The position numbers and the translations under genes are program-made. From positions 1,244,492 through 1,308,491 of the forward strand of contig CAJINV010000012.1 of the NCBI GenBank assembly GCA_905178155.1: a stretch of 64,000 bases of DNA. The letters are read 5' to 3'. The stretch is from Amoebophrya sp. A120 (Eukaryota > Protista > Dinoflagellata). Positions 1 through 59,410 of this stretch are shown piece after piece (position 1 is the stretch's first letter; every line of letters begins with the position of its first letter). The notes beneath the pieces were generated by a model. That model had not been told where the DNA came from and searched no databases. It was given only the letters and a program-made list of their open reading frames with translations.

Positions 1-60
1 TCATGCCAGGCTAGCATCTCAAATATCGCAATCTCCCAGACCCAGAAATGTTTGCATTCG
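1..60. mobile_element. Introner family A (partial, right end)
   Basis: CCAGACCCAGAAATGTTTGCA TIR. Confidence 0.75.
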
Positions 61-3000: not shown

Positions 3001-6000
3001 CGTGCCTATGCAACACAGATTGTCGAGTCATGCCAGGCAAGCATGACAAACTTGCATTCTACTTCCAGATCCTGACCCAGACATTTTTGCATTTGATAAA
3101 AGTCTGCTGCTTCCAAAAGTTGTAGCAGGAAGTAGTCACGTGCAGGCCGTAAAGGTCCTTGATTTTGTGCAAATAGGCGGCGAAGTTGTTTGCGAACTGC
3201 CGCCGCGCCGGGTGAAAGCGGCACGTGGACTATGCAATGCAAAAGCATCGTACTCGTATTGCAATCATGCATTATGCTTCTTGAGGTAAATCAGCATTAC
3301 AAATTTCATTTCTCATGATGTAATGCATTTAATATACGAGTACGATACTTTTGCAATCCATATGGACAGCTGCTTCGCGATCTTGTTGTTGCCGTTGTTT
3401 CCACCAGCCGCACCTGAAACGGATAATTTCGCACTTTCGGTAATGCTTTTCTGTTTCGTTACCACGCTACCTGGTCCTCCCGGCGCCCTCACCATTTCGC
3501 CGCCCTCAGAAGTTGTTGTTGGGCTTCTTTTCTCATTTACATTTCCGCCTCCATCCTCGTCATACCCGCCCTGTTCAAGCGCCGAGACCTGCGGCGCAAG
3601 CACCGCGGTGGGTTTGCTCGAGTACTCGCAACAGCGCGAGAAGTCCACGTCCTGAAGAAGAATGTGCATGTTCGGCACCCCCTTCTTCTCTTTCCTTCGC
3701 TCGTACACCTGCTCGGTGCGGATCTTGTCCACCCGAATGAGCAACTCGATCCCAGTACTACTGCTCGAGGAGGGATGATCCCCCGTCTTGTCAAAACTCT
3801 CGTGCCTTTGTAGTTCAACATCTACGACATCTTCAGCTGAGGTAGCGCATGCTGATAAAAACCCTGCTTCTGCAGCTCGTTCTTCGTTCGCGAGACGAAG
3901 AGCTTCATCTGATGTACTAGCATTTCCATTTTCGTCGAGTGGACCTACATCCTCCCCCACGACCGTCGAAGCGCTGCTGGCACAGCTACTGTAGTTGGTC
4001 ATTTCTTCCAAATAGAATTGAGTGGCTTCAAACAACTTCGAGTGTGTGCAGTGCATGGCCCAGTGGACAATGTCCATCAGGTGCACATACACAATGCACT
4101 CCAGCGAGTCGCGGTAGTTGTACTTCAGGGAATCAAAAATCGCGAGGAGGAGCCGCAGCGCCCGCTCGTAGCCGATCACCTCCCCTCGCTCGCCACTGGT
4201 GCACGCCTCGAAATAGTTGGGCAAGTGATAGTATCCCACGAAAAAAGTGTTACAGTTACACATCTGTAGTCAATTCAGCAACACAAATTTCTCCGCATGA
4301 GAGAGAAAACTTGTAATGCAGAAATCCTACGGGAAAACAGCTATGCAACGAGGCTCCTATGCATATCCGGCATGACACAGCTTGTCTGTCTTGCTTGGCC
4401 TGCAACACAGTCTGTAACTGTAACACTTTTTTCTTGCGATAGATAGCTGAGAAAGCCGGGACGCTCGTGGATGCCGTCCAGGTTGAGATATTCGATGAAC
4501 CGCTTCTGCTCATCGAGAAACAGTTCCGAAAACGCCTGCTGAATCTTCTTCCCCTGTTCAAAGGTGAACACCCGGGCATTGCAGCACAGCTTGATCACCG
4601 CCTTTTTATACATTGCAAATATGTCTGGGACGTCTGGGAAGATCTATATTGGAGGAGTTTTCTCATGCACAATTGTAGTACTTACATGAACCGCGTTCTT
4701 GCCTGATGTAATCCATGCTCTAGCATCTACTTCACACCTATCGTCGCAAAGGCTTCCCTATGCCTATGATCCGGGTGCTCCTTTAATTATAATTTGCTGC
4801 ACATGCAATACAGGTGTATGTAGCATAGAAAGTTAGCATCACAAATCCCATTCTATTTTCAGACCCAAGAAACATACTTGCAATGCATACCGCTCCTTCG
4901 CGGACGAGAGTTCGGCCAGGCATTGCGCGGACCGGTTGTGCAGGTAGATGTCGTAGGCCATAAGAATCGAAGAAGCCACGTCGTAGCTCGTCCCTTGGTG
5001 TTGGTGCGAATTGGCCGCTGCGGTTTTTTTGGAAACAACCAGCTGGTGCGCGTTTTTATTTTTTGAAGATGTCCCGCTGTTCATCATGTCATTGTTTTCA
5101 TCTTCGTGCTTCTGCAGGTCGTTCTCCTGCATTCCTAGCTGTCCAGCTGTTGCTTCCCTTGTAGTTCCGGCTCCACTTGTGAGAGGATCTGCAGTTGAGG
5201 TCAATATCGCCCGCATGGCAGAGGACTCGAGAAAGTATTGCAACGCATGCCGGCCCATCTGGAAATTCCGGAAAACGTTCTCCGTCATCACATGGCCCAT
5301 ATCGGCGAAACACAGGAACTATGCATTGCAAATATGTCTGGGTCTGGAAGAGTGTAACTTGTCATGCTGCATCTGGATCGTGGAAAAATTTGTCTTGCAT
5401 GATCACCAAAAGAGGTCCACTTTTGAACAAGTTTAGAGGCAGTTTCTCATGCACGAAAGGCATGATAGAGATCTCACAGAACCTGTCATGCTAGGCAGCG
5501 CATGCCAGACCGTGTGGGCCATGGAAAACCTGCATGACAAGCCTAGCAATCTTCCAGACGCAGACATTTTTGCATTTGATAGGAACAGATAAAAATGGTA
5601 CAGCTGCATGCAGTCCGGAAGCAGGTCCGGGTGAGGAAGCGATTCTTGTTCCTGTCGCTTATTTCCGCTAGCAAAACCCATTCCTCCCGCTGCAGTAGAC
5701 GTGTGTTGGTCCGGCGTCGCTCTTCGATGCGACGAAGGAGAGGACGCCGTGCGAAGATTTTCGTCGATTCGTGTCCGCCCACTGTGGCGCGGATAACCCT
5801 GCGAAACGTCGTCCATTGTTCTTCCCGCCACCGGATTTATCTTTGTACTTGCAGGTGTTGTTGTACTTCTAGCATCAAGCTGACCGACAGTATGTCCACC
5901 TGCGGTACTAGATGATCTTCCACCACGACCAGCTGCCCGGTCGTTATTTGTACTTCTACTTCCTGCCAATAAAACACTCTTGTTCCAATTCGCGCAGGTT

Positions 6001-9000
6001 TGCAGGATATAAACTGCAAATATGTCTGGGTCTGGAAAGATCCAAGGTTTGTCATGCTTGTCGGACATGCATCTCAACGATCTGTCATGCACATTACCCA
6101 AAAGTGCCACTTTTCTGTCATGCAGAAGCTCGCTTTGTCATGCAGAAAAGCCAAGACTGTAGCACCTCCAAAACTTGTCATGCTTGCCAGTCAAATGAGG
6201 TGTCCTCGTCTTCCGCAACCAGCATTACAAGTTTCCAGACGTAAACATAATTGCAATGCATACAGGAATATCCTTAAGAAATCCAGGGACGCGGGCACGC
6301 ACTCGTTCTGCAGAAACTGGTTGAAGCGAAACCGCATCTGGATCAGGGTCTCGATAACCAGCTGCCACTTTTTGGGCAGTCGGTTGAAGCTTGGCAAGAC
6401 GGCGGCGTTTGTTTTGATCACATGCGTCAACACCGTGGACGGGTCAAAGATGATTGCGTTCGCACTTTGGTCGTTGCTTTTCTTCATCTTCTTCATCTTG
6501 TGTGACTGTTGGATTTGAGACGTAGAAGATTCTGCCTTATTTTTTCCACCACCACTTGCTGACGATGTTGTCCCACCTCCCATAGCCATGCCCAAATCCT
6601 GTCGCAACAGTGGCAATTTTCCGAGCTCGTGGATGGCCAAATAGGCGAAGACCGCGTCGAGAATCTCCTTGTCGAAAATCTTCACGTTTTCCGTCGCCCA
6701 ACTCGTCAGCTCCTTCCAGGCGTAAGTGGTCAATTCCAGATTATTCTTATCCCGAGGTGGATGACCAACGGCGCTCGTAGTAGTTGATGTTGCTGTTCCA
6801 CCGCCACCGGCACCTCCACCGACGGTCATGTAATTCATTTTTCTTGTGCCGGTACTGGCCGGCACTAGATTGCAAAATTCCTCGTATTTGTCCGTCACGA
6901 TGCAAAAGACGGTGAGGAACCCGGAAACCGTGTGCTTCAAGATGTGCTTCGGCGAACGCGACATATCTGAGTACGCCTTCTTTGCCGAGGACGTCGGTGG
7001 CTTTTTACCTGACGCGATAGAATACACAGAACTGTCGCCCAAGTGGTCCTCATCTACTTCTTGCTCATAATCATTTTCATCTCCAGGTCGTGATCCGGAA
7101 GATCCACCATCAGAACTGCTGTTTTTCATCACACCATCAAGATTGTGGAACTTCTCCGCATCCACGAAAAATTCCGAATTGCGCTCGTCGGTTTCATACC
7201 CCCGGAAGTAACAGAGCTCCGGGTAATAATGCTTGATCTCCTGAAGAAATTCTTCCGGCGTCGTCCTCGGTTGACAAAAAAAATGATCCGGTCGTGCAGC
7301 TGTCGCTCGTCCTGCGCGGCCGTGTTTAGATACACTTCGTTGTGATGAACGACCCAAAGCACCAGCTGCGGCTGCGGCATGTGGTCCTCGAAAATCATTT
7401 CCACCGACACCGGAGATGTCTTTGTCTTTCCTCGCTGCTCGATGTTCATTGTGAAGATTGTCATTATTTCCCCCAGGTCGTTTCTTCTGCTCGAAGTGGT
7501 CAACAGAAGTATCTTCATCTTCACGGTCCTCGTGCGAGCTCCACCCTAAGATTTTTTTCGAAATGAATTCTCCCGCTTTTTCCGACAAATTTCTCAAGAT
7601 CCTCTCGTCCTCTATCGGCACCCAAGGGCGGGCACTGACGAGGTATTCTTGGTCATAAGCCGCGCCCGCCTTGCTCGTGTTGTGGTGTTCTTCGTGGTCC
7701 GACACGCTCCGGATGGGAAACAAGTCCAGCCCCACGTTCTCAAATTTCACGGCGGAACTATAGGATTTCGTAAACTGGGTCAAATCCCGAAACTGGATCT
7801 TTATCGGCTCATGTTTACTTCGCACAACATGTTCTTGCGGAGGACGAAACGAGGTTGAGGCTCTACTAGTACTGAGAAAGTGATTGTTCGACGAAGCCCT
7901 TGTGGTATTTTTCATCCCCGTGGTCGTTGCTGCCGATGACGATATTTTTCCGACGACGCTGCTCTGTGCAGCGTCGAAAACTTTCAGCAAGATTTTCAAC
8001 GCGTGTACCAACTCGATCCGGGGGTTCTCGATCGCCGCCTGGAAAAACAAATGCGCGTCAGAAAGAACGAACAGTGTGGATGAGGAACCACCGGCAGCTC
8101 CATAGAACGACAACCCCACACCGCGGCCCGGTTGATGAAAAGTGTTAATACTGCTAGAAGTCGTACTACCCTGAATGGTCACCAGACAACTACCTTCCCT
8201 GCTGCTGTACTTTGACAAGTACCCTTCCAGACGTTCCCACGCGCCCCGATATCAACTGCAAAGATGTCTGGGTCTGGAAGAGTGCCAGCCTTGTCATGCA
8301 GGTTTTCCATGACCCATGAGGTCTGGGATGTAGGACATAGCATGACAGATTCTGCGAGAGTTCTATCATGCCAATCCTGCATGAGAAACTGCCTCTCGAT
8401 TAGGTCAAAAGTGGACAGCTTGTGGTAATCATGCAACACAAATTTTTACATGATTTAGATATAGCATGACAAGTTGCTTTGTTCCAGACCCAGACATTTT
8501 TGCATTTGATACCCGATCCTCTTTCACCATGGTCGCGATCGCGTCCCGCAGCAGTTCCCCGTGTATCGCTATCCTGAGTAAAAACGTCCCTACACCAGAG
8601 CCAAGGTGGTAAATCTGCTAGACAAATCAACCAGCTTTGGCTGTTTCGCATGACAAGTTTGTCCTTGTAGTGTGATCCTGCTTAGGTAGTTCAGCAGCAT
8701 CACAGGTCCAGCACATCATGCTGATTATAGCACCACAAATCCCAAAACACGAACAGAAAATGCCTCTCATGGGGCCCAGCATCAGAAACTTTTTTCGCAT
8801 GCAGATTTGCATGGCAACTCTCAGGTGGGGACGTTTTTGCAAAGGATACTCGCCCCGATTTCCGTGCTGACACTGGTTGCGCTCGTCAGGCACGCGAGCC
8901 GCACCATCGCGGGGTTCACGGTTTTCGGGGTTCCGATCGATTTCAATTCGATGAGCACCGGGACCGACGTCGCTAGCCGGATCAGGTAGTTGTAGTAGAT

Positions 9001-12000
9001 TGCGTCCTCTGTCATTTCGGAATCGTAAAAGTCCAGCAGAACGAGGAGCGCCTTTTCGATCTCATCGAAACTTTTTTGTGACTTTCGCGCAGATGGAAAA
9101 GCGGATGATGTTACGTGGTCAACACGACGACCGGTTTCACTGTCATTGTCTTTCTCTTTGACTTTGTCTGCTGCTGTGCCTCCTGCATCAAAATTCGTAG
9201 TGCTTGTCACCTTGCTCTTCCTGTAGTTCTCCGTTCCATAGGTTGCTTTTTCATTCCCGCCATTTCGACTTGCAGTGCCACTCTCGCGCTCGCCAAAAAC
9301 GACTGCCTTGTCAGAAGTGTGATAAAAATTCGAGCAAAACTGGCACGCCTGTTCTAGGGTTAAAACCGCGAGAAAGAAGGCCAAGCCCGAAGAGGATTGG
9401 TCGGCTATGCTGAGCAAAAACGTCCCCACATCAGAGTCAAGATGGGCAATCTGCTAGACAAATCAACCAGCATTGGCTGTTTCCCATGACAAGTTTGCCC
9501 TCATAGTCTAATCCTGTTCAGCTAGTTCAGCAGCATCCCAGATCCATCTAGCACATCATGCTGGTTCTAGCATTACAAATTCCAAAAGACGACTAGAAAA
9601 TGCTTCTCATGGGGCTCCGCATGAGAATCTTTTTTGGCATGCAGATTTGCATGACAAGTCTGGGGTGGGGACGTTTTTACTCAGAATATCGGTGTAAGCA
9701 AGGTCTCCCTCCGGTTCACCCGAAATAATCCCTGCGTAGCTGTCGACAGCAGGTGGACCACGAGCCAGCTCATCTGCATCGAGTTTCATGATGTTCCGCA
9801 TGTTATACAAATCCACCAAGCTATCCCCTACGGTTTCCCCGCGAATGAACTGCTCAAAAGAGAAGTCCGAGTCCAGCGTTTCGTACACGAATCTCTTCAA
9901 CGGGCCATCCAATCTGGCAAAACTGGGGAACAGGTTCGGAATCTGCGTTTCCAGTGTAAGTTTCTTTCTCTGGTGTACAACACCTTCGTTGGTCGTTGAA
10001 AAAGTCGTGTGCCCGTCGTCGTCTGTTTTATTTTTGCCATTCGGGATACTGCTGTCACAGTCACCGTGGCCATGCTCCTCAACGAGCCCGAGTTCAAGAA
10101 TTTCCAGCACGAACGCGTTTTTCTGCCAGGGGGGTCGAGAGGAAGTCACAGGACTTTTCATCACTGAATCACCTTTAGAAGAAGAAGTAGTTCTACACCC
10201 GCCAGTTGTCGTGCCTTCTACCTTCTTGTCCACCTCCGTACTAGAGCTACAGCACTTCCGCAGTAGCCTCTTCACGTCCTTCCTGAATCTCGCCACATTG
10301 TGCAGCCGCGAGAGAATCAAGCACACAAAAACCGCGTCCAGAACTTCCGGCCCGGCCTCTGCGATCGGTTCGATAAAGCACTTCTGCAGGTTCTTGAAGG
10401 AACGCTTCGAAATCATTGAAGGAGCTCTCGAAAAAGCGGAGGTTGTGCCGCTACTACTCTCGTTGGCTGCACCACTTGCTGCTTCATGAGGAGCGGGGTT
10501 AACATCTCTAGGCGGCGTGCCGGTCGTAGTCGTTGACGGTTTGATATAATTTCCCGTGGACGTCGCAAACACGAAACCGTTGTAATCGTCAGATAATAGG
10601 TAGTAAAAAGCGGCACAAAGCCGCCGCACCTCGTCTCTTGCGGCACTTGCAACATTGATGTAGTAGTTCTTTGACTTTTCTGGAAGTAGATGTTGTGTGT
10701 TTTCATTGTCACGCGGCTCCAAATTATGTTGAGCGACGTCCGACTGAGTCCAATAGTACCCGAGTTCCGGATAGACATTTTGCAACCTCGTGAACAAGAG
10801 AAATGTTTCGGCCTCGTACGATGTCTTCTGTCCGCCATTCGCCAGAAGCTGCAGACCGGCGGAGTACAGTACCCCTGTCCGCATATTAAACCGCCTACGT
10901 TTGATCATATTTCCGGTGCTTCCCAGCCTAGGAATTCGTGACGGATTATCTTCCGGGCGGGAGGAAGCTGACTCCATGAGTTCGTCGGCAGAGGAAGTAA
11001 AATCTTCGTATTTATTTCCACTCCCAGAACAATCATCTGAGCCCGCAGACGTTGACTCATTTTTCATCTCGTATGCTGTTTCCTCATCCTCGACATCTTC
11101 ACCTTCATCCCCATGATCTTCTTCTTCCGACAAACCATCATCAGCGGTTTCCTGCCGACTCAGGGACCCCCGCGCCCCAGCTTCCAGCATCTTCGCAACC
11201 AGAGTGTCGGCAAACTGCAACGCAGAAGTTTGAATTTCGCTGATCTCGACCGGATCCAGGAAAAACCGCCAGGGAGAGAGCTTTGCGACAAATTGTCGAG
11301 TTTGATGTTCGTCGGCTACGGTCGCCCCTATTCTTGCGGGTTCATCGTCGTTCACGCGGGTCGTCGTCGTCGTGTGATTTTCGACATAGAAAAATGTGCT
11401 ATGCTCGTAAAGGAAGGAGGCGACCTGATGCGAAAAGTTGTCTTGCGCAAGTCCAGCAGTATCGTTTTCGTTGTTCTGAACTGCCGGTACGATTGTGTCA
11501 GTTTCAAAGGCGTGAACGTGATCGTCTGTTTCCTGAGAAATAAACTCGTTTGAAGACGAGGACCTCTGAACTGGGTCGACGACGTTTTCTTCTCCATTGG
11601 TCCAGATGACATTACGCAAGTCGTTCCTGTGCAGTGCGCCGATACCGATTAGGAAAGCCAGGTCAACACAAATGTAGTTGGACTCTTGAAGTTCGTGTTG
11701 ATGCGCCACCACATCAACTCCGTCGATGTTGATGTCGTTTCCTCGCTCCTGCTGCAAGGGCGGCTGCTCTACTCCCCCTACGGTCCGAGAAGTTAAACGC
11801 CACAGCCTTTCCGCCTCGTCGCACACTCGCAAGAGCAGCTTCAAAGCACGTTCGAGGCCGATGAAAGTAGAGTTTCGGGCAGATTTCAAAAAAACCGACA
11901 GTTCTTGGATCAAGAGTTGCGGAGGTCCGGAGAAATTCTGTTGCTTTCTGTGTGTTGTTGAAGATGCAGTAGCTCCACTTGCCATGCTTGGAGGAGATGT

Positions 12001-15000
12001 TGTCCCGTTATTAGCAGTGGGTAGTTGTTCAGATGACCCGCCACCAGCCGCCACTGAGAAATTTTTGCCCAACATGAAGTCGCCATTATTCAAGAGCCGA
12101 CTGAGGCGAAAGCGCTCAGGTGGTGAAAGACCGTGGAAAAACGCGGTCTTCAGTTCTGCTACGGAGCCGGAGATCCTTTTTTGTTTAGAAGCAGCTGCAG
12201 CTGCTGCTCCACCGCTAATTTCAGTTGTTTCCTCCACACCGCCGATGATGGTGCTGTCGTCCTCTTCTTCAAACGCTGTGAGGGCCACTGCCAGTCTCGC
12301 TAGCGCCCGGTTCTGGAGTGCTGCCTGGCCCATTCTTCGCTTTTCGAACTCTTCCCGATCTTCGTCCTCATGGCAGCTGCCCTGGTGGTTAATATTTTGA
12401 TTTTCGGTCATGCCACTCTTAAAAACACCGCTGCTCGTATCATGATTTCCGCCGGTGCTTTGCTGTTGAGCAGGACTCTCGTCCTGTCGAGCCTCGTCTA
12501 CATCCAATTCTGCCCAAAGCCGAATCCGTTGCTCGTGAGACAATTTAGCGTAGTTTTGCTCCTTTGAGTTCTTAGTGCCTGGTATGATGGTGGCTCCGTC
12601 GATGATCTTTTTCGCGGTAGGACTACTGATGCCAACAGAAGTTTTGTCTTCCTGCTCTTGTACCACGCCTTGTCCTTGCAGTTCGTGGTCACTTTTCGTT
12701 TGCAGTCGCTCCGTCGTTTCCTTCACAAATTTTCCGCGTGTTTTCTGCCAACTGTGGTACAGGACCAAATCGGTGGCCGTCATAGGTACAAGGTGGCTAT
12801 GTTGGGTGCTGACGGTGTCAGCACAAGTGGCGGCGTGACTTTTCGGTAGTACGCTTTCTTGCACTGCTCCAGCACCTCCGTGGCCCACAAGACCTCCACC
12901 TGGAATACTAGCAATAGGAACTATCAGTGACTCCATCAACACCTGAGCCCCAAAGAAAAACCGCTGAAAAACGGACTCCGTCATGGCCAACGAGCCGGAG
13001 AGAGACTCCGCCCCCCGCGAGCCGGCCAGGTCGAGAAAAATCGTGAAAAGAAAAAACGCGAGGGTTTTTCTAGCTGATAAGGTGCTGTGTGGTGGCGATG
13101 CTCCGGTAGATGAAGTGCTGCTGTTAAACGAGAACCCCCCGTCCGGCGATGATGTTTTTCTTCCCTCCGATGTGTAGTGGTTCGTACGATCGCCAAGCAA
13201 TTCCTTTCTCAACTTTTCGACATTCGCCGCCACATTCTCCCCGGCTAGAAACTGCCGGAAGCTCCACTGAATCGAGAAGCATTTCCGCAAAAGGATTTGG
13301 TGCTCGTGATCCAGCCGCGCGAAACTGGGCAGGAGATTGGAGGTTGTGCTGAAACTAGAGGAAAATTGCTGGGGTTCTTGGGAAGCAAGACCAGGAGCGC
13401 CGGAGCCCGCCCTCGTCATCGCGTTATTTGTTGCACTACTACTACTACTCGCAGTATTCTTAACGCCGATCACAGAGAGCAGTTTCCCATTGCGTCCTCG
13501 ATCGTCAGCCACGCGCCAGAGACTGTCACTTAGCTCAACTTCTGCGGGATGCAAATTGGTGACATAATTACCATCGTAGCTGCTACAGGGTCTTGATCTT
13601 GTTACATGCGAGGTGGAAAAATATGAAGCATTTCTTCCCTGAAATAAACTGTCGCTCCCGTCAGGTCCAGGACCACGTGCTTGCCGAAGATACCCGTTGT
13701 GATCGCTGCTAATAAACGGTCCTGATCTACTCCTCCCAAATGGATGCTCATCTCCTCCGTAAGTGACGTCCCCACTTGTCGGCCGCTCTTGGAGGTCGTG
13801 CTGCCCACCTCCGAATGTTGTTGTTTTCCTCGCAACAGAAGCCGTCCTGGTCGTGCCGCTGCCAGCACCACCAGCAGTACCACCACCTCCCTCTTCGAAG
13901 GAGCCTGGTTTAAAAATCCCCAACGCGCTCAACACCTCCGCGCTCTTCCCCGCGCAGCGAAAGTCTGCGTTTTCCTGGCCCAAATTGCGAAGAATCACGT
14001 ACGTGCACAGTGCGTTGAACGTCTCGGGATGCGCGAGGCCCAGGGTATGAAAATGCATAACTCCACCTCCCCCTCATTTGGATGGCGTCCGCAGCAACAC
14101 AAGTCCTGGCACAGATGCAGCTTTTGCATGACAAATTTACGACTGGTTGTAGTGCTGTTTCGGCTTTGGGAATCTGTCATGCATAGTATCGGCAAAGGGC
14201 AAAGGGTGGCTTTGGTGTTTTGCATGAGAAATGAGAACGAGGGGGAGTTGTGCACTGTCATACAGGGTTTCTTCCCCGAAAAAGGGCTGCAGGAGGTCGG
14301 TCCAGGAGGAAAGCGTGAGTTTGGTGGACGAAACATTAGGGCCATTTTTCATCTTCGGATCGTTTATATCCCCACCGCCCGCTGCATTATTCATTTTCTG
14401 GAAGGCCGCCGGTGCCGTCAGATTCATCTCCTGTCCCTGCGTAAACAAGTCGTACCGATCTGCAGCAACGTGGTACAGAGACAGCAGGCTGCAAACCGTC
14501 TGCAGATACTTCTCTTGCGCTCTGGCGTTCACCGTATTGTTCATTGCGGCGGACATTCTTGTCGGGTTGTAGGGGGAACAACTTAAAAATGCGCGCGACT
14601 TTTGCCCGCCCATTTGAGCGTCTTCACTCTTGTTAGAATTTCCAGCAGCATTTATTCCAGCTCCTCCACCCACAGAGCGGGACGATTGCTGACTCGTGCC
14701 CTTTTGCGTGTCACTTATCAAAATGAAAAATGCCCCCACCCCGGAACTTGCAATTATAGTTTCTCATGCAAAGTTTGCAAGTGAAAGCTTTTTGTCTTGC
14801 ATGAAAGGACTACGAGCCTTTCTGATGCAGAACCTAGACTGCGCAAGGTATCGCTTGCGTAACAGATCCGGCTGCTGTTGGGCGCCTTTGCAACACAGAT
14901 TTGAGCTATTCAGCATGGAAAATTTCTGATGCTGATATATGCAAGACGGGGAGCGTTTCAATTGGAAAGGTTTGCAATACAAATGCTGCCAAGTTGTGGA

Positions 15001-18000
15001 CTGGGGGCATTTTCCATTGTAATATCACCAGACACTGCTTTCCGCCACACCGCGTCCAGACCGATCGACTGCGTTGCCACATTGATGTTTCCTGAGTAAA
15101 AACGTCCCCACACCAGAGTCAGGATGGGGATTTTGCAACACAAACCTAGGAGCTTTGTGAGTCACGCATGACAAGTTGCGCTCCGCAGTGTAGTGCAGGT
15201 TAGCAAGTGCAGCCGCATCACAGATTCATCTGCTCATCCTGTTCACAGCATCACAAATCCCACAACACGACTGGAAATGGCTCTCATGGGGATGCGCATT
15301 ACAAGTCTTCCTGTCTTTGCAAATCTGCATTACAACTCTGGTGTGGGGACGTTTTTACTCAGGATATGATGTTGTTGTGCAGCACGGGGTCATTGGGTGA
15401 GCCACCACCGCCCGACCGCTCTTCAACACTGTCCGCTATATTGGACGTGCTTGGAGGAAGATGGCCGCCGGTCGGTTCCTGTAGTGCTGACGCAGCTGAA
15501 ATGGAGTGTTGATCTTGATGGGTATTATCCGTATAATCTTCTTCAGCTCCCCCACTTCCTACGCGGCCCGACGAGCAATCATTTCTCTTGCCGTCCCGCA
15601 AAACGTCGAAACCAGAATTACCTTCGGTGCAGCAGCTCGACGCAATGCTATTGAGGTTTCTTGACCTTTCTTCACTGATGATCGACAGAAAAGGCAGGGC
15701 GGTAGTTGGATCATGATCCTGAGTACTATGCAGTTGGAGATTTTTAGGCTCGAACATTCCGTGGTCGTGGTACAGAGTATCACTCCGTGCTCCATAGACG
15801 GAACCCATGAAGACTCCCCCTGGCGCACCCCCGCTCGGTCCCGCTGCCATGCGCGATAAAAATCCACCGCCCGTCGATCTGTGCGCGGCAGCGGACGCGG
15901 AGGTTGGGCGGAATAGTAAGGAACCGGCTCCTGCTGCTTCAACAGCTGATCCGTAGTAAGATTGAGGATACGCACGTGAAGATGAAGAGGTGTGAATCTT
16001 CGCACTGTTTCTCCCCGCGGACTGGCTGTCCCATTGGAAATACGAGAGTTCGGGAAAAATTTGGTGTACCTGCACAACAAATTCCGTCTCGTCTATCGCG
16101 TTCCACTCGCACACTTCCGCGGCAAACGCGGAGCCACGAATATTCAAGTGGTGCAAAGGGTTTCTCCGGTTCGCATAATTCGCCGCTGCGGACGTCGCGG
16201 AGTAGCCGAGCTGTGGCCCACCTGTGGTAGTACTTGCTGGTGGTGCACTGGAAGTCCTAGACCAAGCGGCAGAAGATGAAGTTCTTTTTCCCGCTATACC
16301 CGCAGAAGCTTTCTTACCACCCTCAAAGAGACCATCTTCCGGTGTTAGAGGTGCGGAAATGCGCCGCGTGTGGGGCACGATTGCTGTACTGGCTGCAGAT
16401 GAAAAATTACCACCTGCTTGGTGGTTCATGAGCGAAAGCATTTTTCGGTTGTAGTCTTGCAGCAATAAGTGGACGACGCTGCTGTTGCCCTGCAGGCAGG
16501 CGTAGTGCATCGGGAGCCAGCCGTTCGCGTCCTGCACGAAGCTGTCGGCGTTGCAATCCAGCAGTATCTGGCAGATCTCGGCCGCGTTCAACCGCGCGGC
16601 CGAATGAAGGGCGGTTAAGTGTGCCGTGGCCGAGGTGTTGACCAGTCCTGGTGCGCTTATTTGCTGGGGAGATGAGGATGCAGCCACATCATTCGCCGAC
16701 GTGTCAACAGTGTCGTGACTGCTGCCTCCTGCCTGAGCAGCCGCTTGCGTCTGCCGACTCCGGCTCGTAAAAGTGGAAGCAGCTTCTGCAGCAGCCTCTC
16801 GTTCTTGTTGCTGTTCAGACTCTATTAATACCTGACTCTGATATAATCGTCCACCTCCTGCTGTACTACTGTTGTAATTGCTGAGCGACAAAAGGCAGGG
16901 CTCGTCGATGTACTGCACAAATTCGAAGGGCAGATCTCGTAAAATCTGGAAGAACGAATCGTAGCTGTACTCGATGGCCAAATAGAAAATCATCGACAAC
17001 CGCTGTGCCTTCGTCGTGTTGGCTCGTATCGCCGTGCTGTATGCGGAGAGGACTGGTTGAACTGGGAGTTGCTGTTCATCCACTTCTGCTGGAACCGCGG
17101 GAGAACCAGCGACTTGTTGCTTGCCCATCTCTACTTCTGGGCCGGTAGCTTTATTCGCGTCCTCCGCTGTTAGAACTTGTTCCGCGCGGCCGTCGTTATT
17201 TTCCTTGTCCTCGGTAGTGCGCTGCTCGACCCGTCCCGCGGCTGGTACAACCGCCGAAGTTGTGGTCACGCGACCCGGTTGTAGTTGGCTGCTCCAGTAG
17301 GCACTAGTACTCGCATGATTTGCACTTTCGCCGGAGCAGCAGCCCTGCTGGCAAAAGGCGTGGAGTTGTTTGGTGACGATTTTGAGGAAAATTCTCGGCC
17401 ATTTCTCCACCAGCATCTCAACCAAATCGCGCCACCACGGATCCAGCATCATCGTGATGAAATTCGGAAGCACTAGAGAGGACGTCGACGCGGCGACTTT
17501 TGACCTCGACGAGGGAGTAGATTTCCTCTTCGCATCTTCCTTGCCCACGACGGCCCTGCTTGTTCTTTCCATGACTGATTCGGTGCTTTCCGGCTCTTTT
17601 GGTTTTGATTTTGTTTTGTCGAACGACTCATCATTTCCTCGTCGTTCCTGTTCCGCTTCCGCACTACCTCCAATTGCCAAATTTTCTTCTTTTTCGGTCC
17701 CAGGCGCGGCACTATTGGTATTTTCGGAGCCATAACTGCTTATCTCAAGACTTACCCCATTCAGATAATCCACCCAGTTTTCAGCGATCACGATTTCTTC
17801 CGCCTGGTTTACCTCTTCCACCAAGCAGCTCGCGGCCATGTACTTCTGAAAAGCGAATAGAGAAAACGAAAACTGTTCCGATGCAGTTGCGGCTTTGCTC
17901 GTTTGTTTATGTACTGGTGACATACTAATTCCGCCGTTCGGGTGGCTGCTGCTTGAGCTTCTCGTAGTGGTGGAACCACCATAATTCGTCGTAGCAAACA

Positions 18001-21000
18001 AATTGGAAGCCCCCGCAGGTGGTTGTCCCATGATGTTGCTATAAGAACTTCCCCCGCCCCCCGATGCGCTTGTAGTTCCCCCGCCACCGCCCGCTCTGCA
18101 ATTTATCAAGGTGACCTGACCCAGACGAATGGTCTGCGCAAAGTCTTCCCACAACGACAACAGCTTCGTTTTACTACTACTACTACTTCCCGTTGAGGAA
18201 GCTGCACCACTTCCTCCTCCCGCGACAGGCCCCTTTTTCCGCAACTCCACCCTCTTCTTCCGGAAAACCCACCGCAGCCACTTGTGCGAGAACTCCCGTT
18301 TGTGGCGGATCTGAAGCTGATACGCGATCTTCTGCAGAAGAATTTGAAACAGTTTCTGCTGCTCTTTCAGCTTAAACCGGTCCGACTGCTGCCGCGTTTT
18401 GACCCGCGAAAGCAAGACGTCGATGGAAACGCGGAACACTTCGGTAATCGCAACTGTCGTGTTCAACGGTACGGCTTGCTGTTGGTGGGGATCAAGTAGA
18501 CCATTTTGGCTCTTCATCTCAGCAGAGCCGAGACCGCTGGCGGACCGCTGTTCTAGTACTCTCGCGACGCCTCCTTTCGACGTTGTGCTGTTGCTGTTTA
18601 CAACACCTGCTGCACCCGCGGAAGTAGAAACACCCGAGGCTGGTGTTGTGATTTTTCCCGCTGCTGCTGATGCGGATGATGTTGAATCTTGCTTGCGCAC
18701 AGCACTGCTGTAACTGGAGTCGTTCGAGGCCACCGCTTCACTGCCGATGGAGGACCTCGCACGCAAAGACGAAGAGGACCCAATCGCAGCTGTTGGAGCA
18801 GCCGGCGGCCCGCCCGAGATCGAGCTCCGTGCAGCTCCCGCTTGTAGCTGCTGTTTAGTACTGCTATTTTGCGCAGCCGTACTAGCTGCAGCAGACCCAC
18901 CACCATTCGCCGCGTTCGCTCCGGCAACTTGCCAGTAGCACAGCACCATGGAGAGCATAGTTGGCGATTTTAACAGTCCGCGCTCTCCGTCTTTCAGTAG
19001 TTTCTCCTCGACCTGCTGTAAAAACTGCAAAAAAGCCGTCACGACGTCCTGCTCAGAGTTCTTATTTGCTGCCGTTCCCCCTGCTGCGGTGCTTTGCGCG
19101 TTTACCGCTGTGAGATGATCTCCTCCTCGACTAGTCGCGGCTCCTCCGGGCGCGAGACGGGCGTTGATGATGTGCCGTTGCTGCTGTTCGTCAAGTTCCT
19201 CGAGATGATACACTTGGAAAAAGGAGCTGAAACTCTGGCTCATTTGCTCCGAAAGCGGTACTACTGCGACCGGCACGGCGAGGGGTCTGGCACTGGGCGG
19301 TGGGTATGGAGTGCCTATTCCAGTCATCGAAGAACTCTTACTTGGTCCAGTTGTACTACTCACAGTTGTTGTGCCCCCTCCGACAACAGCAGTGGATGCC
19401 GCGCTAGGTTGCTGCGCTATCCCGGCCGCCCCTTGTTGCAGTTGCATCGCGGCGGCCATAGCTCCCTGCTGCTCAGCGTCGTTGTAGATAAATCCTTCTG
19501 TCGTCGTGCTATTTTCATAGAGGGCCGTATATCCGGATGAGCCTCCTGCCGACGCTCTCGTCGTCCCCGAAGGTACTTCTAAACCATAGTCATGGTACAG
19601 GTCATGCTTTCCCAGAAACCCTCCTCCTGCTTCCCGTCCCAGGTCGCGCAACTTTGCCGAATTCGTCCGACTGCGCTGCCGGTAGGCGGACGAAAGAACT
19701 TTGCACACCGTGGTGCAAACGTCGTCTTCGGAAGGATGGAAATAATCCGCCTCTTCAGAACCACATCCACGGGCGTCGGCGTTGACAAAGGTGACCATAG
19801 ACTGCTTCTTCCCAACCACCGGGATAGAAGACGTCGCGCAGGAGGCCTCGTTCGCTGCTGCAACAGCAGTCCCCGCAAAATTATAGGCGCCTTCGTTGTT
19901 CATCGCACTGCCTGGCTTCAGGATGGACTTTGTCTGGTTCGCGATGGTGGCGGTGCGAGTGGAGACCAGGTTTGATGGCGTGTTGTCTGCTGTATTCCCC
20001 GTGGTGCCGGCGGTTGTCGGAGGCGTGGAAGGGTACAAAGGACAAGGTTGAACTTCATCATGATCCCCGTTGTACCCATTCAATATTTTGTCCTCATTTC
20101 TCAACAAACTGGCGTCGTGCTGCATGGTGCTAGCAGCCGCTGCAGACAAAATCTCGTCGCCAGATGTACTTAATGAATTCCAGTTACCGAGAACAGCAGC
20201 ACCAACATCTTCTGCAAAACTAGCTCCCGTTTCGCATACGGACGGCAATGGATTTATTCCTGTACTACAGTCCGCAGAAGTCGTGCTCCCCCGAGAAAAA
20301 GAAGAATTCTGACTGTGCATATTAGTGTAACGCTGCCAGTGCTGGTGAACAAGCGGCGCTCCACCGAAACTGCCACCGAGAGGTCCTGCAGTAGTCCCGC
20401 CCCGCAACCCAAAGACCCGCTGTCCCGCGGCGACGACGACCGCTTCCACGGTAGAGGCGCGGATTTTCTGAAACGAATCCGAATTCGAAATTACATTCCG
20501 TCCCGCAGAAGAGGGGGAAATACTAAAGGTTGTCAGCTGCTTCTGCACCGTGATGTGATCGCTGCTCCTCTGGGGCGACACTGATAGAATAGAGGAGGTA
20601 GTTGCGTCCGACACAGTTTTGGTGCTCGCAAACGGAAAGAACGAACCGGTGGTTGAAGATGAGGATGAACTGTTCTTCCGAAGTAGATGATTTGATGTAC
20701 TACTGCTACTTCTCTGCACATCGACCAAGGGCGCGAGAACGGCGTCGCATGCGATACGCAGAACTTCCAGCTCACGGTCGTTGTTCAGGGAGCTGGCGCT
20801 GTCTTGCTGCGAGGAGTGTTGATTTATATTTATTTGGTCCTGCTCCAATGCAGATAGCATATGGTCTGCTGCGGGAAGAACAATATTATCGCCTCTGGAC
20901 GTCGAACTACTCCCCCCGCCGAAGCGTACTCGGTGCGGCTGCTGCGCGTGCGCACCTCCCCAGCGGGAACTGCGATGCGCAAAGTCGTCCAAGGCCCCGC

Positions 21001-24000
21001 GAAACGTGTTCTGCTTCAGCATTTGCAGCCCGGTAGAGCAGGTGCCAAAATGAAGATCAGTGGCATGATCGCTAGTCCCCGGTTCTTGGCGGAGATGCTC
21101 CTGGTGGTGAAAACTCCTACCCCCGGCGGAAGTTGCCGCAGAAGGAGCCAACATGTAGTTAATACCCGCCGTCATAGCTGCACTAGTACCGGCTCCCAAA
21201 AAATCGTCCACCCCCGTCGCGCTCGACGGCCGGAGCGCTACACAGACGCGGTGGTGCGCAAAGTTCAACGCGAAGAGGATCTGCTCGAGCTGAGGAGACA
21301 AAGTGTCAGTATCGTTGTCGAATAGAAAAACCACCCTGCGACAGTCAATGGCGTGGCGGAAAAGCTGGTACCGGGTGGAATCTTCCCCGTGCAGGATCTT
21401 CAAATAGCGATCGATCAAATCAATCGACAGTGTCGCCGAAAAATCCTCGGAGTCCTCCGGGGAACCCGGTCCACCCGCGGAGGTGGTACAATATTGTTCC
21501 TCCGCGGCGGAGTCGCGCTTCGAGGTAGTGAGTCGGGAAAAGTTGTTGGGAGCAAAGTGATGTTGCTGGTGTGTAGACGAACTGGTTTTTGGATAGGTGT
21601 TTGAGTGTGGCCCGGTTTGCTGCAGGGCAGAGGGACTAGTACTACTTCCAGCTGATGTAGTTCCACCTGCTAGTGTTGTGAAGGAGTTGATATGATCACG
21701 TTCACGACTAGAGGGATAAGCTGTAGCAGACGTGGGCTTGTTGTAACGACCCACATCACTCCCGTTCTTCTTGGTACTATTGTGAATGAACCCAGTGTAG
21801 GCCTCGGATTCCGTATCAGACTCGAGTGAAGATGATGACTCATCGTAGTTATTCGCCGTTTCATCCATACCCCCTGCTCGTGGCGATGATGAGCCATCTT
21901 TTGGTAGTGACGGGGGATTCCCGTAGTTCTCACTCCCATCACTCCCACCGGATATCCTATGTAAAAACATCCCCACCCCAGAGTTGTCATGCAGATTTGC
22001 AAGCACAAGAGCATTTGTAATGCGCATCCCCATGAGAGCCATTCCCCATCTTCGTGTTTTGGAACTTGTAATGCTGTAAACAGGATAAGGAGACGGATTT
22101 GTTATGCGGCTTCCCTTGCTAAACTGCACTACAGTACAGCCTGCAACTTGTCATGCGTGACTCCCAAGAGGTCTAGGTTTGTGTTGCAAAATCCCCATCT
22201 TGACTCTGGGGTGGGGACGTTTTTACACGGGACACCAGATTTGATCTTGTTACCCCTGCACGATGAACTCTCCGCAATCGTAGTGCCAGAAGTTGTGTTG
22301 TAGTTCGACGACGCATTCGCGCGTCCGGGCAACGAGGGGGGGCCCTGTGTTGAAGACCACTCGGAAGGAGCAGGAGCGTATTTCTTGTTGTCACTGGTGT
22401 TATTTTCCCCGGCGAAAGAAGTTGTGGCAGAAGAAAATGCAGCGGACGTCGTGGAATTCGCATTCGTTCTCGCCAAGAACTCCGAAACCGGGATCAAAAG
22501 CGGGATTAATTCCTGATATCGCAAGAAAAAACTGTTTCACTGTGAACTTGTGATGCAGAAAATGGAACACAGAACTATTTGTCTTGCTACACCTGAAACA
22601 CATTGGATTTGCAAGCGTGTTTTCCCTTGGGAAGCGCGCATAACAGACTTTCAGTGTCATGTGTAACACACTTGTGATGCAGATCTAGCAAAATCATCAC
22701 AGTGAAACAGTTTTTTCGTGGGATACCTGACTCGCATCATTCAACACGGTCAAAATCAACTGCCGCAACAAACACGACTTCCCGCTCCCCGAACTTCCCT
22801 TGATCACGAACGACCGGGGGAAGGACTGCGCACACGAACGGTACTGCTGCGGGACGACTTTGATTTTCGCTGGTTTCATTTGCATTCCCGGCTGCCTGTT
22901 TTTCAGTTTCACTCCGCGCCCGGCGCTCGTTTTGCTTTTGACGGTGTCGTTCCTCGGCGTCCTGGCACTAGTGCTGGAAGTTGTTGTTGTTGTTTTTTTC
23001 ATGTTCAACTCTACTTCTGCACTAGGAAAATAGCACACGGTTTGTATCAACGGAGCGAGCTCTGGCGGGATGTGGAGCTCCTGCTGCTGTGGTAGCTGTT
23101 GTTGTTGTGTAGATGCACCGTACGCGAAACGGGTGGCCCCAGACCTGCCTTGCCCCGTGAAGATTTTCCGCATCAAAAACGTCTCTCCCTCAGCACTGCT
23201 CGTTTTCGCTTGCCGAACATCTTCCCTTCCGGACGACGAGAGCAATTTTTGCAGGTTATCGTCTACTCCGTATGTTGTTGTGCTCATCGGTCCTCTTCTC
23301 GTCGTTAATATCCAAAAAAAAACTGTGTAAGTGTAGGTCTTTTGGGAAAACAGCATCACAAGTTTGTCTGCCATGACAGGAAAAACTTGTCATGCGCAGA
23401 TAGGATGGGAAAACACGTAGGAAGCGAGCCTATCACGCATGTGGAGCATGACAAGCGTAACTGTTTTGCATTTTCTGCACCACAGACTTACACTTACGCA
23501 GCTTTTTTCTTGCATAGTCGTCGAAACATGATGCTGCCCACGAGGACCACCTCCCAGGTAGTTGTAAGGACGAGCTTCCGGTGCCCCGTTAACGCCCCGC
23601 AGTCGGAAGCTGGCGCAGTCCACTTTCAGGTCGAGCTTCAATCCTGAAATAGCGTCGATGATAAAGCCGTAACGCGCCTTCAGGAACGACCGGAGCCGGT
23701 GTGCCTCCTCGGAAAATTGCCTCGCGGTCATCGTGTTTTTACGCACGCAATGGTTCCAGGAGTTCAAATCGACCAGGAAAGCAGCCGCATCGCCCTCGGT
23801 AGGCAAATTTTCTTCATTTTCGTGCTCGACAGATAACGTGCCCGTCCTTGTACTAGTAGCACCATCTGGAAGCACACCGCTACCTCCCGGGGGCTTGTGT
23901 TGTCCTCCTGCCGTCGCCGACGACGACAGGACAGGATCGGTGTCAGCATCGACCTCTCGTCCCCGTGCTGCATCATTTCGTGGCGAAGGCCCTTCGTGAT

Positions 24001-43568: not shown

Positions 43569-43830
43569 TATCAAATGCAAATATGTCTGGGTCTGGAAGA
43601 GTGCCAGCCTTGTCATGCAGGTTTTTCCTGACCCATGAGGTCTGGCATGGAGGACATAGCATGACAGATTCTGTGAGAGTTCTATGATGCCTATTCTGCA
43701 TGAGAAACTGCATCTCGATTAGGTCACAAGTGGGCAGCTTTTGGTAACCACGCAACGCAGATTTTTACATGATTCAGATTTAGCATGACAAGTTCCAACC
43801 TTCCAGACCCAGACATATTTGCAATGCATA
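43569..43830. mobile_element. Introner family A, apparently in a 3' UTR
   Basis: TIR; TSD TTACA; closely similar to 8250..8511. Confidence 0.9.
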
Positions 43831-59200: not shown

Positions 59201-59410
59201 ACCCGCATTGTAGTACTGTTTGCAGTTGTTCCGAAATTTGCCATGCAAGGAGTGCGAAAAGGCAGGGTGTGGATTTGGTATTTCGCATCACAAACGAGGG
59301 GAAAAGGGAGCAGTTGTGCCCTCTCATATCATGGACGCCATCTTCATGCTGGCCATCATCTTATTCATGCTGGCCATCTTCATGGCCGACATCTTCTTCA
59401 TCGGGGCCAT
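56256..59410 (-). CDS. Small basic protein (~140 aa) with Met/Lys-repeat N-terminus, putative chromatin protein
   Basis: AAAAAAATG start; MAPMKKMSAMKMASM...MKKLQVMKKQAEK...QQKGKLKAVFLQGVAIAKRKIAAREVFRQAAQKAISRVQK*. Four introner junctions are in frame; the junction across ~57075-58660 is unresolved. Confidence 0.7.
56305..56595. mobile_element. Introner family A (diverged)
   Basis: TIR; TSD AGACT/AAACT. Confidence 0.85.
56662..57009. mobile_element. Introner, B-related
   Basis: TATCC..GTAAAAACG / CGTTTTCACACAGGATA; TSD CAGCT. Confidence 0.8.
57066..58650. repeat. Duplicated intron/acceptor block: copies 57066-57303 and 58417-58650, partial copy 57750-57818
   Basis: GGGCGTGCTGCATCATGTCCG(A/G)TTGTCTCACACAGAAAAA occurs three times; CAAGCCGAAAAAAGATAAGAAGTATGTTA occurs twice. 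Confidence 0.85.
58791..59056. mobile_element. Introner family A
   Basis: TIR; TSD CTTCT. Confidence 0.9.
59100..59328. mobile_element. Introner family L
   Basis: TIR TATGAGAG(T/G)GCAC; TSD TCATG. Confidence 0.88.

What the first reader, a model, noticed from the sequence alone, without database searches (positions are those of the whole stretch)
14041..14267. Frame-restoring junctions are incompatible with GT-AG splicing
Seen: sliding the boundary through the TSD gives at best GT...CT at 14046 and at 516, and no GT-AG option at 1318 (TGCAG), 4232 (GATAG) or 59100 (TCATG). No pyrimidine tract is present. A normal GT-AG intron coexists at 43920..44070. Inference: two splicing logics operate in the same genes, one guided by TIR pairing or a bound protein.
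Basis: partly seen in the sequence, partly recalled or inferred. Interest (0 to 1): 0.8.

Follow-up and report, generated by a model that had tools for sequence, protein, structure and literature searches.

The report
Transposon introns cut by fixed ruler
Small mobile elements with matching ends fill the genes of what is likely the parasitic dinoflagellate Amoebophrya, where such odd introns are already known, and assemblies of likely RNA lack them with a cut that fits one position throughout, one base before their TAT start and four bases after their ATA end, which likely means the splicing machine reads the element's own ends instead of GT-AG.

Summary
The element 14046-14262 (TAT...ATA inverted ends, 5-nt target duplication) has no GT-AG register, and removing 34 such elements gives one stop-free 8,401-codon frame. 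The system is published: Amoebophrya A120-type introner elements (Farhat 2021), whose borders that paper calls variable or unknown. This scan noted similar introns in two other dinoflagellate genomes (unchecked).

New here: in likely-RNA contigs, 14 of 14 simple joints skip element+5 nt, and only one register fits all: N|TAT...ATA NNNN|. Elements with decayed target duplications are cut at the same place. All four GT-starting ones ignore an AG 2 nt away. Both orientations of a family sit in one frame. A canonical intron is removed from the same gene. The A seven bases from the 3' end never varies, while its mirror base at the 5' end does (9 vs 0, post hoc), and G-U pairs are not enriched. This favours a spliceosome that reads end motifs, with a branch A and a ruler, over pure hairpin pairing; that step is untested.

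Limits: one sample, one contig per joint per run, no RNA over 14046 itself, and one tandem joint unresolved.

The parts
14046..14262 (-). Introner element, 217 nt, TAT...ATA terminal inverted repeats; closest relative in the window is 59100-59328
   Evidence: folds as one long hairpin, z -2.87
14263..14267 (-). Upstream copy of the 5-nt target duplication (CCCTG on the sense strand); its last base is predicted to be intron base +1
14041..14045 (-). Downstream copy of the target duplication; its first four sense bases are predicted to be the last four intron bases
14042..14263 (-). Predicted intron under the rule (222 nt, GT...CT); not itself covered by RNA here
   Evidence: rule; frame
1..33950 (-). 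Host gene (open at both ends): 8,401 codons without a stop after removal of 34 elements; ankyrin repeats and a TCAD9/kinase-like domain
   Evidence: homologs P0001-P0003, one named Amoebophrya sp. A25
512..771 (-). Predicted intron of element 516-770 (GT...CT; 5' triplet TAC)
1314..1644 (-). Predicted intron of element 1318-1643 (AT...GC)
4228..4442 (-). Predicted intron of element 4232-4441 (CT...AT)
22513..22726 (-). Element whose rule register happens to read GT...AG
43920..44070 (-). Canonical GT-AG intron, 151 nt, with a polypyrimidine tract; removed in likely-RNA contigs
44161..44406 (-). Intron with unique register (TT...TC); no target duplication left (0 of 5 match)
44994..45126 (-). 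Intron at rule register; duplication decayed (1 of 5 match); registers 0 or 1 fit
45211..45348 (-). Intron with unique register (GT...GC); ignores an AG 2 nt downstream and a 5-nt direct repeat offset by 3 nt
46366..47011 (-). Intron with unique register (GT...CT, 646 nt, 5' triplet TAG); ignores an AG 2 nt downstream
47219..54526 (-). Two tandem elements (47509-54526, which carries a retroelement, and 47222-47501) skipped together; register unresolved, possible 2-nt microexon
56301..56596 (-). Intron at rule register; mismatched duplication, registers -1 to 1 fit
57087..58679 (-). 1,593-nt intron at rule register; mismatched duplication, registers 0 or 1 fit; joint seen in X5 and X10
59096..59329 (-).
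60485..60612 (-). Intron at rule register; registers 0 or 1 fit; joint seen in X5, X9 and X10
61799..61986 (-). Intron at rule register; registers 1 or 2 fit; joint seen in X5 and X9
62129..62361 (-). Intron with unique register (TT...GG); degenerate inverted repeat ending ATG, predicted terminal pairing 0.01
63335..63537 (-). Intron at rule register (5' triplet TAC); registers 0 or 1 fit

Best explanation
These inserts have the anatomy of small non-autonomous transposons (TAT-N7-AAA inverted ends, 5-nt target duplication) and are missing from likely-RNA contigs at one fixed register, one base before the 5' TAT and four bases after the 3' ATA, likely because a modified spliceosome reads the element's end motifs instead of GT-AG. 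Shown: the anatomy, the removal of element+5 nt, the register, independence from the target duplication, neglect of nearby AG, and both orientations in one frame. Inferred: insertion by a transposase making a 5-nt staggered cut; the fixed register removes exactly one duplication's worth of sequence, so an insertion at any site and in either orientation restores the original message. Predicted and untested: the donor is read as N|UA (the +2 U and +3 A of an ordinary donor, without the +1 G), the invariant A at -7 is the branch point, the 3' cut is measured 6 nt past it, the hairpin only brings the ends together, and the intron leaves as a lariat. My odds: membership in the Amoebophrya A120-type introner class 0.95; the fixed register 0.9; the spliceosome and branch-A mechanism about 0.5.
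For: Register: 14 of 14 simple joints skip element+5; the only register common to all is k=1; 4 joints allow only that register and 6 more allow 2-3; chance of a common register under random cuts about 1e-5. Two elements catalogued before the RNA was laid (44998, 61803) already intersect at k=1. All 9 'predominant' A120 border motifs in Table S4 of PMC7789003 have T second, as the rule predicts. Duplication not needed: 7 confirmed introns have 3-5 of 5 mismatches. Frame: 8,401 codons, 0 stops, 34 elements; 9 of 13 junctions reached by homolog alignments lie in conserved gap-free blocks. Orientation: 5 of 6 families occur both ways, and again in a second assembly. Strand asymmetry: intron base +4 deviates from T in 4 of 58 window elements and A(-7) in 0 of 58; in the second assembly 2 vs 0 of 72 strictly oriented, 5 vs 0 with relaxed orientation; pooled 9 vs 0, p=0.004. 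A hairpin would tolerate the unseen change (U-G) better than the seen one (C-A). Machinery: A120 keeps 83 of 89 spliceosomal proteins and U2, U4, U5, U6, but no U1 was found (PMC7789003 section 10); relatives with U1 use GT-AG (PMC12005148 passages). Precedent: TIR-derived non-GT/AG introns in Fritillaria, in a study of its spliceosome (10.1101/2025.08.15.670264 passages).
Against: No excised intron was seen, so lariat chemistry is untested. The same spliceosome would have to use AG at canonical introns yet ignore an AG 2 nt from the cut in 4 of 4 confirmed GT-starting elements (out-of-frame products could be degraded and so be unseen). Base +1 is not enriched for G (19 of 58, p=0.57). The U-run lies upstream of the candidate branch A, the reverse of the usual order. 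The A(-7) asymmetry was noticed post hoc, counts are small, the second assembly alone gives p=0.06, and strand-biased mutation could produce it. Most elements do fold end to end (31 of 54 with mean pairing above 0.5 over the first four pairs), which fits a hairpin-measured machine equally well. All RNA joints come from three runs of one sample, one contig per joint per run, and their RNA status is the tool's guess. The joint 47218-54527 as reported fits registers 2-3, and fits register 1 only if the one unlisted letter difference in that piece is at the joint. Five of the 14 elements, including all four with a unique register, were recognised only from their joints.
Confidence: 0.5

Rival explanations
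1. A separate, non-spliceosomal machine like the unknown one of euglenid nonconventional introns measures both cuts from the base of the TIR hairpin (1 nt on the 5' side, 4 nt on the 3' side) and would release circles or linear RNA.
For: Same architecture as the Euglena rule N3-CDG...CH'G-N5-6 with fixed spacers (PMC12501133 passages). Symmetric ends, both orientations, AG ignored, +1 random. 14046 folds as one hairpin. Sense strands fold slightly better than antisense (p=0.025).
Against: No G-U excess. Complementarity drops to 18-33 of 46 at positions +5 to +8, right beside the cut. 45215, 60489 and 62133 have predicted terminal pairing of 0.06 or less yet are cut on rule. Changes at +4/-7 are one-sided in the direction that pairing disfavours.
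Confidence: 0.3
2. A TIR-binding protein, such as a domesticated transposase domain, bridges the two ends on the RNA, and an endonuclease and ligase cut and join at fixed offsets.
For: Conservation is motif-like (TAT, then an A-run at +12 to +16) and not a continuous helix.
Against: No such protein was identified here; PMC7789003 reports no transposase in A120. It does not explain the one-sided A(-7) invariance.
Confidence: 0.1
3. The elements are excised from DNA in the expressing stage, and the transcripts are made from the cleaned template.
For: TIR and duplication anatomy suits DNA excision; the DNA and RNA runs are different samples.
Against: DNA contigs of X1 run from exon into element with no differences (for example 9662-14117), and none of the 15 listed DNA joints (of 695) skips an element. 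Elements with no duplication are removed at +5 exactly. The A(-7) asymmetry follows the transcribed strand. Likely-RNA contigs also hold element sequence.
Confidence: 0.04
4. Ordinary spliceosomal splicing at cryptic GT/GC-AG sites near the borders keeps the frame.
For: In-frame GT/GC-AG alternatives exist within 6 nt for 6 of 34 elements, within 12 nt for 17, within 20 nt for 27. GT-AG at the rule register in 5 of 130 elements, p=0.054 against chance.
Against: 14 of 14 simple joints skip element+5 and none has a GT-AG register. Homologs align without gaps at 9 of 13 junctions. 14046 has no such option within 12 nt.
Confidence: 0.03
5. The join is guided by the direct repeats (template switch or repeat pairing), in the cell or during reverse transcription.
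For: 32 of 58 window elements have a perfect 5-nt repeat and a hairpin, the setting for reverse-transcriptase jumps (artefact mechanism recalled).
Against: Elements with 0-2 of 5 matching bases are cut on rule; at 45215 a perfect repeat offset by 3 nt is ignored. The protein frame and the homologs require removal in the cell.
Confidence: 0.03

Closest known systems
Introner elements (IEs) and non-canonical introns of Amoebophrya sp. A120 (Farhat et al. 2021, PMC7789003)
   Same: IR starting TAT + 7 nt + AAA, 3-5 nt direct repeats, about 240 nt mean length (median 262 here), hairpins, families, genes holding both intron types, unidirectional genes; 65% of RNA-supported introns non-canonical.
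   Different: The paper's Fig. 3 legend calls the splice sites variable relative to the hairpin and the border unknown. Here the border is fixed at N|TAT...ATA NNNN|, is independent of the direct repeat, and has an invariant A at -7.
Euglenid nonconventional introns (Nomura et al. 2025, PMC12501133; review PMC11282704)
   Same: No GT-AG, inverted end motifs at fixed spacers from the cuts, slidable borders resolved with non-slidable cases, coexistence with conventional introns, likely MITE origin.
   Different: Motif CAG/CTG with spacers 3 and 5-6, against TAT/ATA with 1 and 4. Euglena needs a purine as first exon base; here 9 of 14 confirmed joints have one. Euglenid introns leave as circles; unknown here. 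Unrelated lineage.
TSD/TIR introners of Micromonas, Aureococcus, Symbiodinium and Polarella (PMC9860276, PMC11282704, 10.1101/2020.10.14.339549)
   Same: DNA-transposon origin; intron = element plus one duplication's worth, so the message is unchanged.
   Different: Those carry or co-opt GY/GA and AG sites and so need particular target sites; these need neither.
Fritillaria borealis non-canonical TIR-derived introns (10.1101/2025.08.15.670264; PMC11282704)
   Same: MITE ends serve as non-GT/AG splice sites in most introns.
   Different: Fritillaria has dominant dinucleotides (AG-AC, AG-AT); here +1, -2 and -1 are free.

Membership tests
Amoebophrya A120-type introner elements | 8-20 nt inverted repeat beginning TAT, seven variable bases, then three or more A | tested here: met
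   TAT positions 57, 57, 54 of 58; A at +12..+14 in 50, 55, 48 of 58 (partly built into the scan). 14046 reads TAT-N7-CAA/TAA.
Amoebophrya A120-type introner elements | 3-5 nt direct repeat at the exon-intron borders | tested here: met
   5 nt: exact in 32 of 58, one mismatch in 14; exact in 193 of 256 in a second assembly, other lengths 0-5.
Amoebophrya A120-type introner elements | Absent from transcripts at non-GT-AG borders | tested here: met
   14 of 14 simple joints in likely-RNA contigs; 14046 itself not covered.
Amoebophrya A120-type introner elements | Repeated in families across the genome | tested here: met
   6 families of 2-11 copies in the window; high depth over elements in DNA run X1.
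Amoebophrya A120-type introner elements | Host is Amoebrophrya of the A25/A120 group | tested here: inconclusive
   Only named homolog is an Amoebophrya sp. A25 protein at 49% identity; element signature fits A120, not A25 (TTA). Strain not established.
U2-type GT-AG spliceosomal intron | GT or GC donor and AG acceptor | tested here: not met
   2 of 58 allow GT-AG, 0 GC-AG; AG 2 nt away ignored in 4 of 4.
U2-type GT-AG spliceosomal intron | Lariat through a branch adenosine | not testable with these tools
   Invariant A(-7) is suggestive only.
U12-type AT-AC intron | AT-AC ends with U11/U12 machinery | tested here: not met
   3 of 58 allow AT-AC; U11 and U12 not found in A120 (PMC7789003).
Euglenid nonconventional intron | N3-CDG...CH'G-N5-6 and purine at exon start | tested here: not met
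   Motif is TAT/ATA with spacers 1 and 4; first exon base is a pyrimidine in 5 of 14 joints.
Euglenid nonconventional intron | Released as full-length circular RNA | not testable with these tools
   No reads of excised introns.
MITE (non-autonomous TIR DNA transposon) | TIR, fixed-length target duplication, no coding capacity | tested here: met
MITE (non-autonomous TIR DNA transposon) | Autonomous partner transposase with the same ends | not tested
   No whole genome held; PMC7789003 found none in A120; PMC12130899 reports Ginger-reminiscent TIR elements there.
Group I or group II self-splicing intron | Conserved ribozyme core | tested here: not met
   0 Rfam matches at gathering score in the window; elements as short as 123 nt.

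The most novel reading that the evidence does not exclude
Amoebophrya of this group has a splicing pathway with no required boundary dinucleotides: a spliceosome without U1 that takes a transposon's inverted repeat as both donor (N|UA) and fused branch point and acceptor (A at -7, cut 6 nt later), so that any insertion, in either orientation and at any site, becomes a seamless intron while GT-AG introns are handled in the same transcripts.
Probability: 0.4. Interest if true: 0.85.

Novelty: already known. Interest (0 to 1): 0.58.

Why it matters
The intron class is published, but its borders and chemistry are open: the describing paper leaves the border unknown and proposes no chemistry. A fixed register turns tens of thousands of 'variable' borders into one rule, corrects gene models (mismatched duplications change codons), and names the exact nucleotide (A at -7) and junction to probe for a lariat or a circle. 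It also explains how these elements can invade coding sequence with no target preference. If the spliceosome does this, it would be a spliceosome that works without G(+1) or AG(-2,-1) and ignores an AG two bases away. If it does not, it would be a second origin of a Euglena-like non-spliceosomal pathway.

Tried and rejected
No whole genome is held, so snRNA variants and a partner transposase could not be searched. The run search listed no holder on record as RNA. X3 behaved like error-prone DNA. Junction translation of 11 mismatched duplications in the long frame gave no stop in any register, so it does not choose a register. Mismatch counts by duplication position were uninformative. The G-U versus A-C test for RNA pairing was null. 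Rfam gave no match. Six scan candidates were dropped as internal or weak (6745, 8364, 33463, 43683, 58442, 61803; 61803 was later restored by its joint). In the second assembly 184 of 256 elements could not be oriented strictly and were left out of strand tests. Rejected: stop-codon readthrough (the in-frame stops at 23390 and 29018 lie inside elements), plus-strand genes, duplication-guided joining, and cryptic canonical sites. The Stentor paper (PMC5659724) is not held, so the distance of the ciliate branch A from the 3' end is recalled; PMC9004412 passages confirm only a conserved branch A in 15-nt introns. The look-up of earlier notes on this genome was empty.
Full report
1. Observation. 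The sequence at 14041-14267 is CAGGG, a 217-nt element starting TAT and ending ATA, and CAGGG again. The host gene is on the minus strand. With the element in, the frame has two stops; without element+5 nt it runs on. Sliding through all equivalent registers gives at best GT-CT at 14046 and 516 and no GT-AG at 1318, 4232 or 59100. A scan for inverted ends with a flanking repeat found 42 candidates, 36 kept, against 0, 1 and 1 in simulated windows. Similarity search, inspection and RNA joints raised the catalogue to 58 elements, covering 38% of the window, median 262 nt. Only 2 of 58 allow GT-AG. The canonical intron 43920-44070 is real. The claim of no pyrimidine tract needs a qualifier: 51 of 58 elements carry a T-run at -19..-15, but not beside an AG.

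2. The elements must be removed, by element+5. Removal lengths in the class of element+5 left at least 100 open codons on both sides for 31 of 43 elements, against 0-4 for the other two classes modulo 3. Removing 34 elements between 33950 and 1 gives 8,401 codons without a stop; the longest unspliced frame is 2,263. Three homologs were found among 6,744 candidates, one named Amoebophrya sp. A25. Of 13 junctions that their alignments reach, 9 lie in conserved gap-free blocks, 2 are gap-free at low identity, 1 is divergent and 1 falls in a gap. This excludes element+2 and element+8 at those nine.

3. DNA and RNA. DNA run X1 has contigs identical to the window that run from exon into element, including 9662-14117; none of the 15 listed joints (680 more hidden) skips an element. 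On 43901-63900, contigs of X5, X9 and X10 (one sample; RNA is the tool's guess) gave 15 listed joints, 3 hidden. X5 shows all 15, X9 two and X10 three, each by one contig. An X10 contig joins across the canonical intron, and the X5 depth in that bin (6.54) matches a contig without it (6.55 expected; 13.1 if retained), so these contigs behave as spliced RNA and one gene uses both logics.

4. The cut has one register. All 14 simple joints skip element+5. With k the number of bases taken upstream of TAT, the allowed sets are: {1} for 44165, 45215, 46370 and 62133; {0,1} for 44998, 57091, 60489 and 63339; {-1,0,1} for 56305; {1,2} for 61803; uninformative for four perfect duplications. The intersection is {1}, with chance about 1e-5 under random cuts. 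The intron is N-TAT...ATA-NNNN. Five of the 14 were recognised only from their joints, including the four unique ones; there the test is that 6 of 8 ends have the exact triplet at the predicted place. Two elements catalogued beforehand (44998, 61803) already intersect at {1}. Seven introns have 3-5 of 5 duplication mismatches, and 45215 ignores a perfect repeat offset by 3 nt, so the duplication does not guide the cut. The four that start GT (45215, 46370, 56662, 58791) each have an AG whose end lies 2 nt from the cut and do not use it. The fifteenth joint, 47218-54527, skips two tandem elements. As reported it fits registers 2-3; register 1 predicts the same length with a 2-nt microexon and one different letter, and that piece has one unlisted difference. 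It is unresolved. The named element 14046 has no RNA cover; its closest relative, 59100, is among the confirmed joints.

5. What is read. Five of six families occur in both orientations, also inside the one long frame. A pattern scan of metagenome contigs returned 145 loci, all from contigs JACKZZ01, with the same families at up to 94% identity; they hold 256 elements, 193 with an exact 5-nt duplication, 72 orientable, again in both orientations. One family is biased, 25 to 6 (p=0.0009), so interiors are not wholly neutral. The signals therefore lie mostly in the symmetric ends. Pairing is possible (14046: z -2.87; 31 of 54 with paired ends), but selection for RNA pairing is not shown: G-U is not favoured over A-C (48 vs 33; 50 vs 46), complementarity is weakest at +5 to +8, and three confirmed introns have almost no predicted terminal pairing. 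One asymmetry stands out: T at +4 changes (4 of 58; 2 of 72 strict, 5 relaxed) while its mirror A at -7 never does; pooled 9 to 0, p=0.004, post hoc, and 0.06 for the second assembly alone. Base +1 is random (p=0.57).

6. Mechanism. Shown: anatomy, removal, register, independence from duplication and AG, both orientations. Inferred: transposase insertion with a 5-nt stagger; the register returns the original message at any site. Predicted: a spliceosome reads N|UA as donor, uses A(-7) as branch point and cuts 6 nt later. In support, A120 keeps 83 of 89 spliceosomal proteins and U2, U4, U5 and U6, but U1 was not found, whereas a GT-AG relative has U1. A branch A 6-8 nt from the 3' end is recalled from heterotrich ciliate introns and group II introns; one search confirms only that 15-nt ciliate introns have a conserved branch A. 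The main rival is a Euglena-like hairpin-measured machine. I give 0.5 and 0.3; protein bridging 0.1; DNA excision, cryptic sites and repeat-guided joining 0.03-0.04 each.

7. Comparison with what is known. The elements match the A120 introner elements of Farhat et al. 2021 (PMC7789003): IR starting TAT, seven variable bases, three or more A; 3-5 nt direct repeats; 65% non-canonical introns with RNA support; genes with both types. The system is therefore known. That paper's Fig. 3 legend calls the sites variable and the border unknown, while all nine of its predominant A120 motifs have T second, as the rule predicts. I found no statement of a fixed register or a branch A in searches or in the passages read. 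Caveat: the paper's figures (Fig. 3 logos, Figs. S19-S25) are not visible, the legend of Fig. S23 places the IR 1-5 nt from the splice sites, subscription journals are not searched, and bioRxiv supplements are closed.

8. Papers seen. PMC7789003: abstract, passages, sections 10, 11, 12 and 16, supplement search and part 3 of 5. Passages only: PMC12130899, PMC12501133, PMC11282704, PMC9860276, PMC11453091, PMC12005148, PMC9004412, 10.1101/2020.10.14.339549, 10.1101/2025.08.15.670264. Not held: PMC5659724. Earlier scan notes e1-7695377 and e1-7693921 report similar hairpin introns in other dinoflagellates; I did not check them.

9. Verdict. Observation confirmed; interpretation partly supported; the system is already known; the fixed cut rule and the candidate branch adenosine appear to be new and make the open question of its chemistry directly testable. 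Interest 0.58.

Noticed in passing
window 1-33950 (-): One gene of at least 8,401 codons with ankyrin repeats, a TCAD9/kinase-like domain and a weak STAND NTPase hit, split by 34 elements and needing no canonical intron; homologs of 876-2,282 aa cover only parts of it.
   Followed up: partly
window 47509-54526: A 7.0-kb TIR element carries a retroelement (RVT_1 hit at 50755-52674; three frames separated by single TAG stops at 52675 and 50752) and is still skipped in a likely-RNA contig, so cargo of several kb is tolerated.
   Followed up: partly
window 47502-47508: Seven bases between two tandem elements; the rule predicts a 2-nt microexon at 47503-47504.
   Followed up: partly
window 35585-37256: Element with a nested 1.4-kb insert that has its own long inverted repeats (35825-35913 and 37116-37204) and a 17-nt tandem array at 36269-36435.
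   Followed up: no
window 56256-59410 (-): Small basic protein of about 136 aa with Met/Lys/Ser repeats at the N terminus and five non-canonical introns; recalls dinoflagellate DVNP-type chromatin proteins (recalled, not tested).
   Followed up: partly
window 57091-58678: Composite 1.6-kb intron holding three copies of one element end, each followed by a duplicated piece of the next exon; the joint uses the last copy.
   Followed up: partly
window 4607-4889, 23309-23516, 45215-45347, 46370-47010: Old elements with a direct repeat displaced 3-4 nt from the inverted repeat; the frame still fits element+5.
   Followed up: partly
window 43569-43830: An element lies after the stop codon of the 44-55 kb gene, so insertions are not confined to coding sequence.
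   Followed up: no
L001-L145 (contigs JACKZZ01): A second assembly carries the same element families at up to 94% identity with the same 5-nt duplication; no exon match to the window among the top hits.
   Followed up: partly
262-nt family (5320, 8250, 24959 and others; loci): Orientation bias of 25 to 6 relative to the gene, unlike the other families.
   Followed up: no
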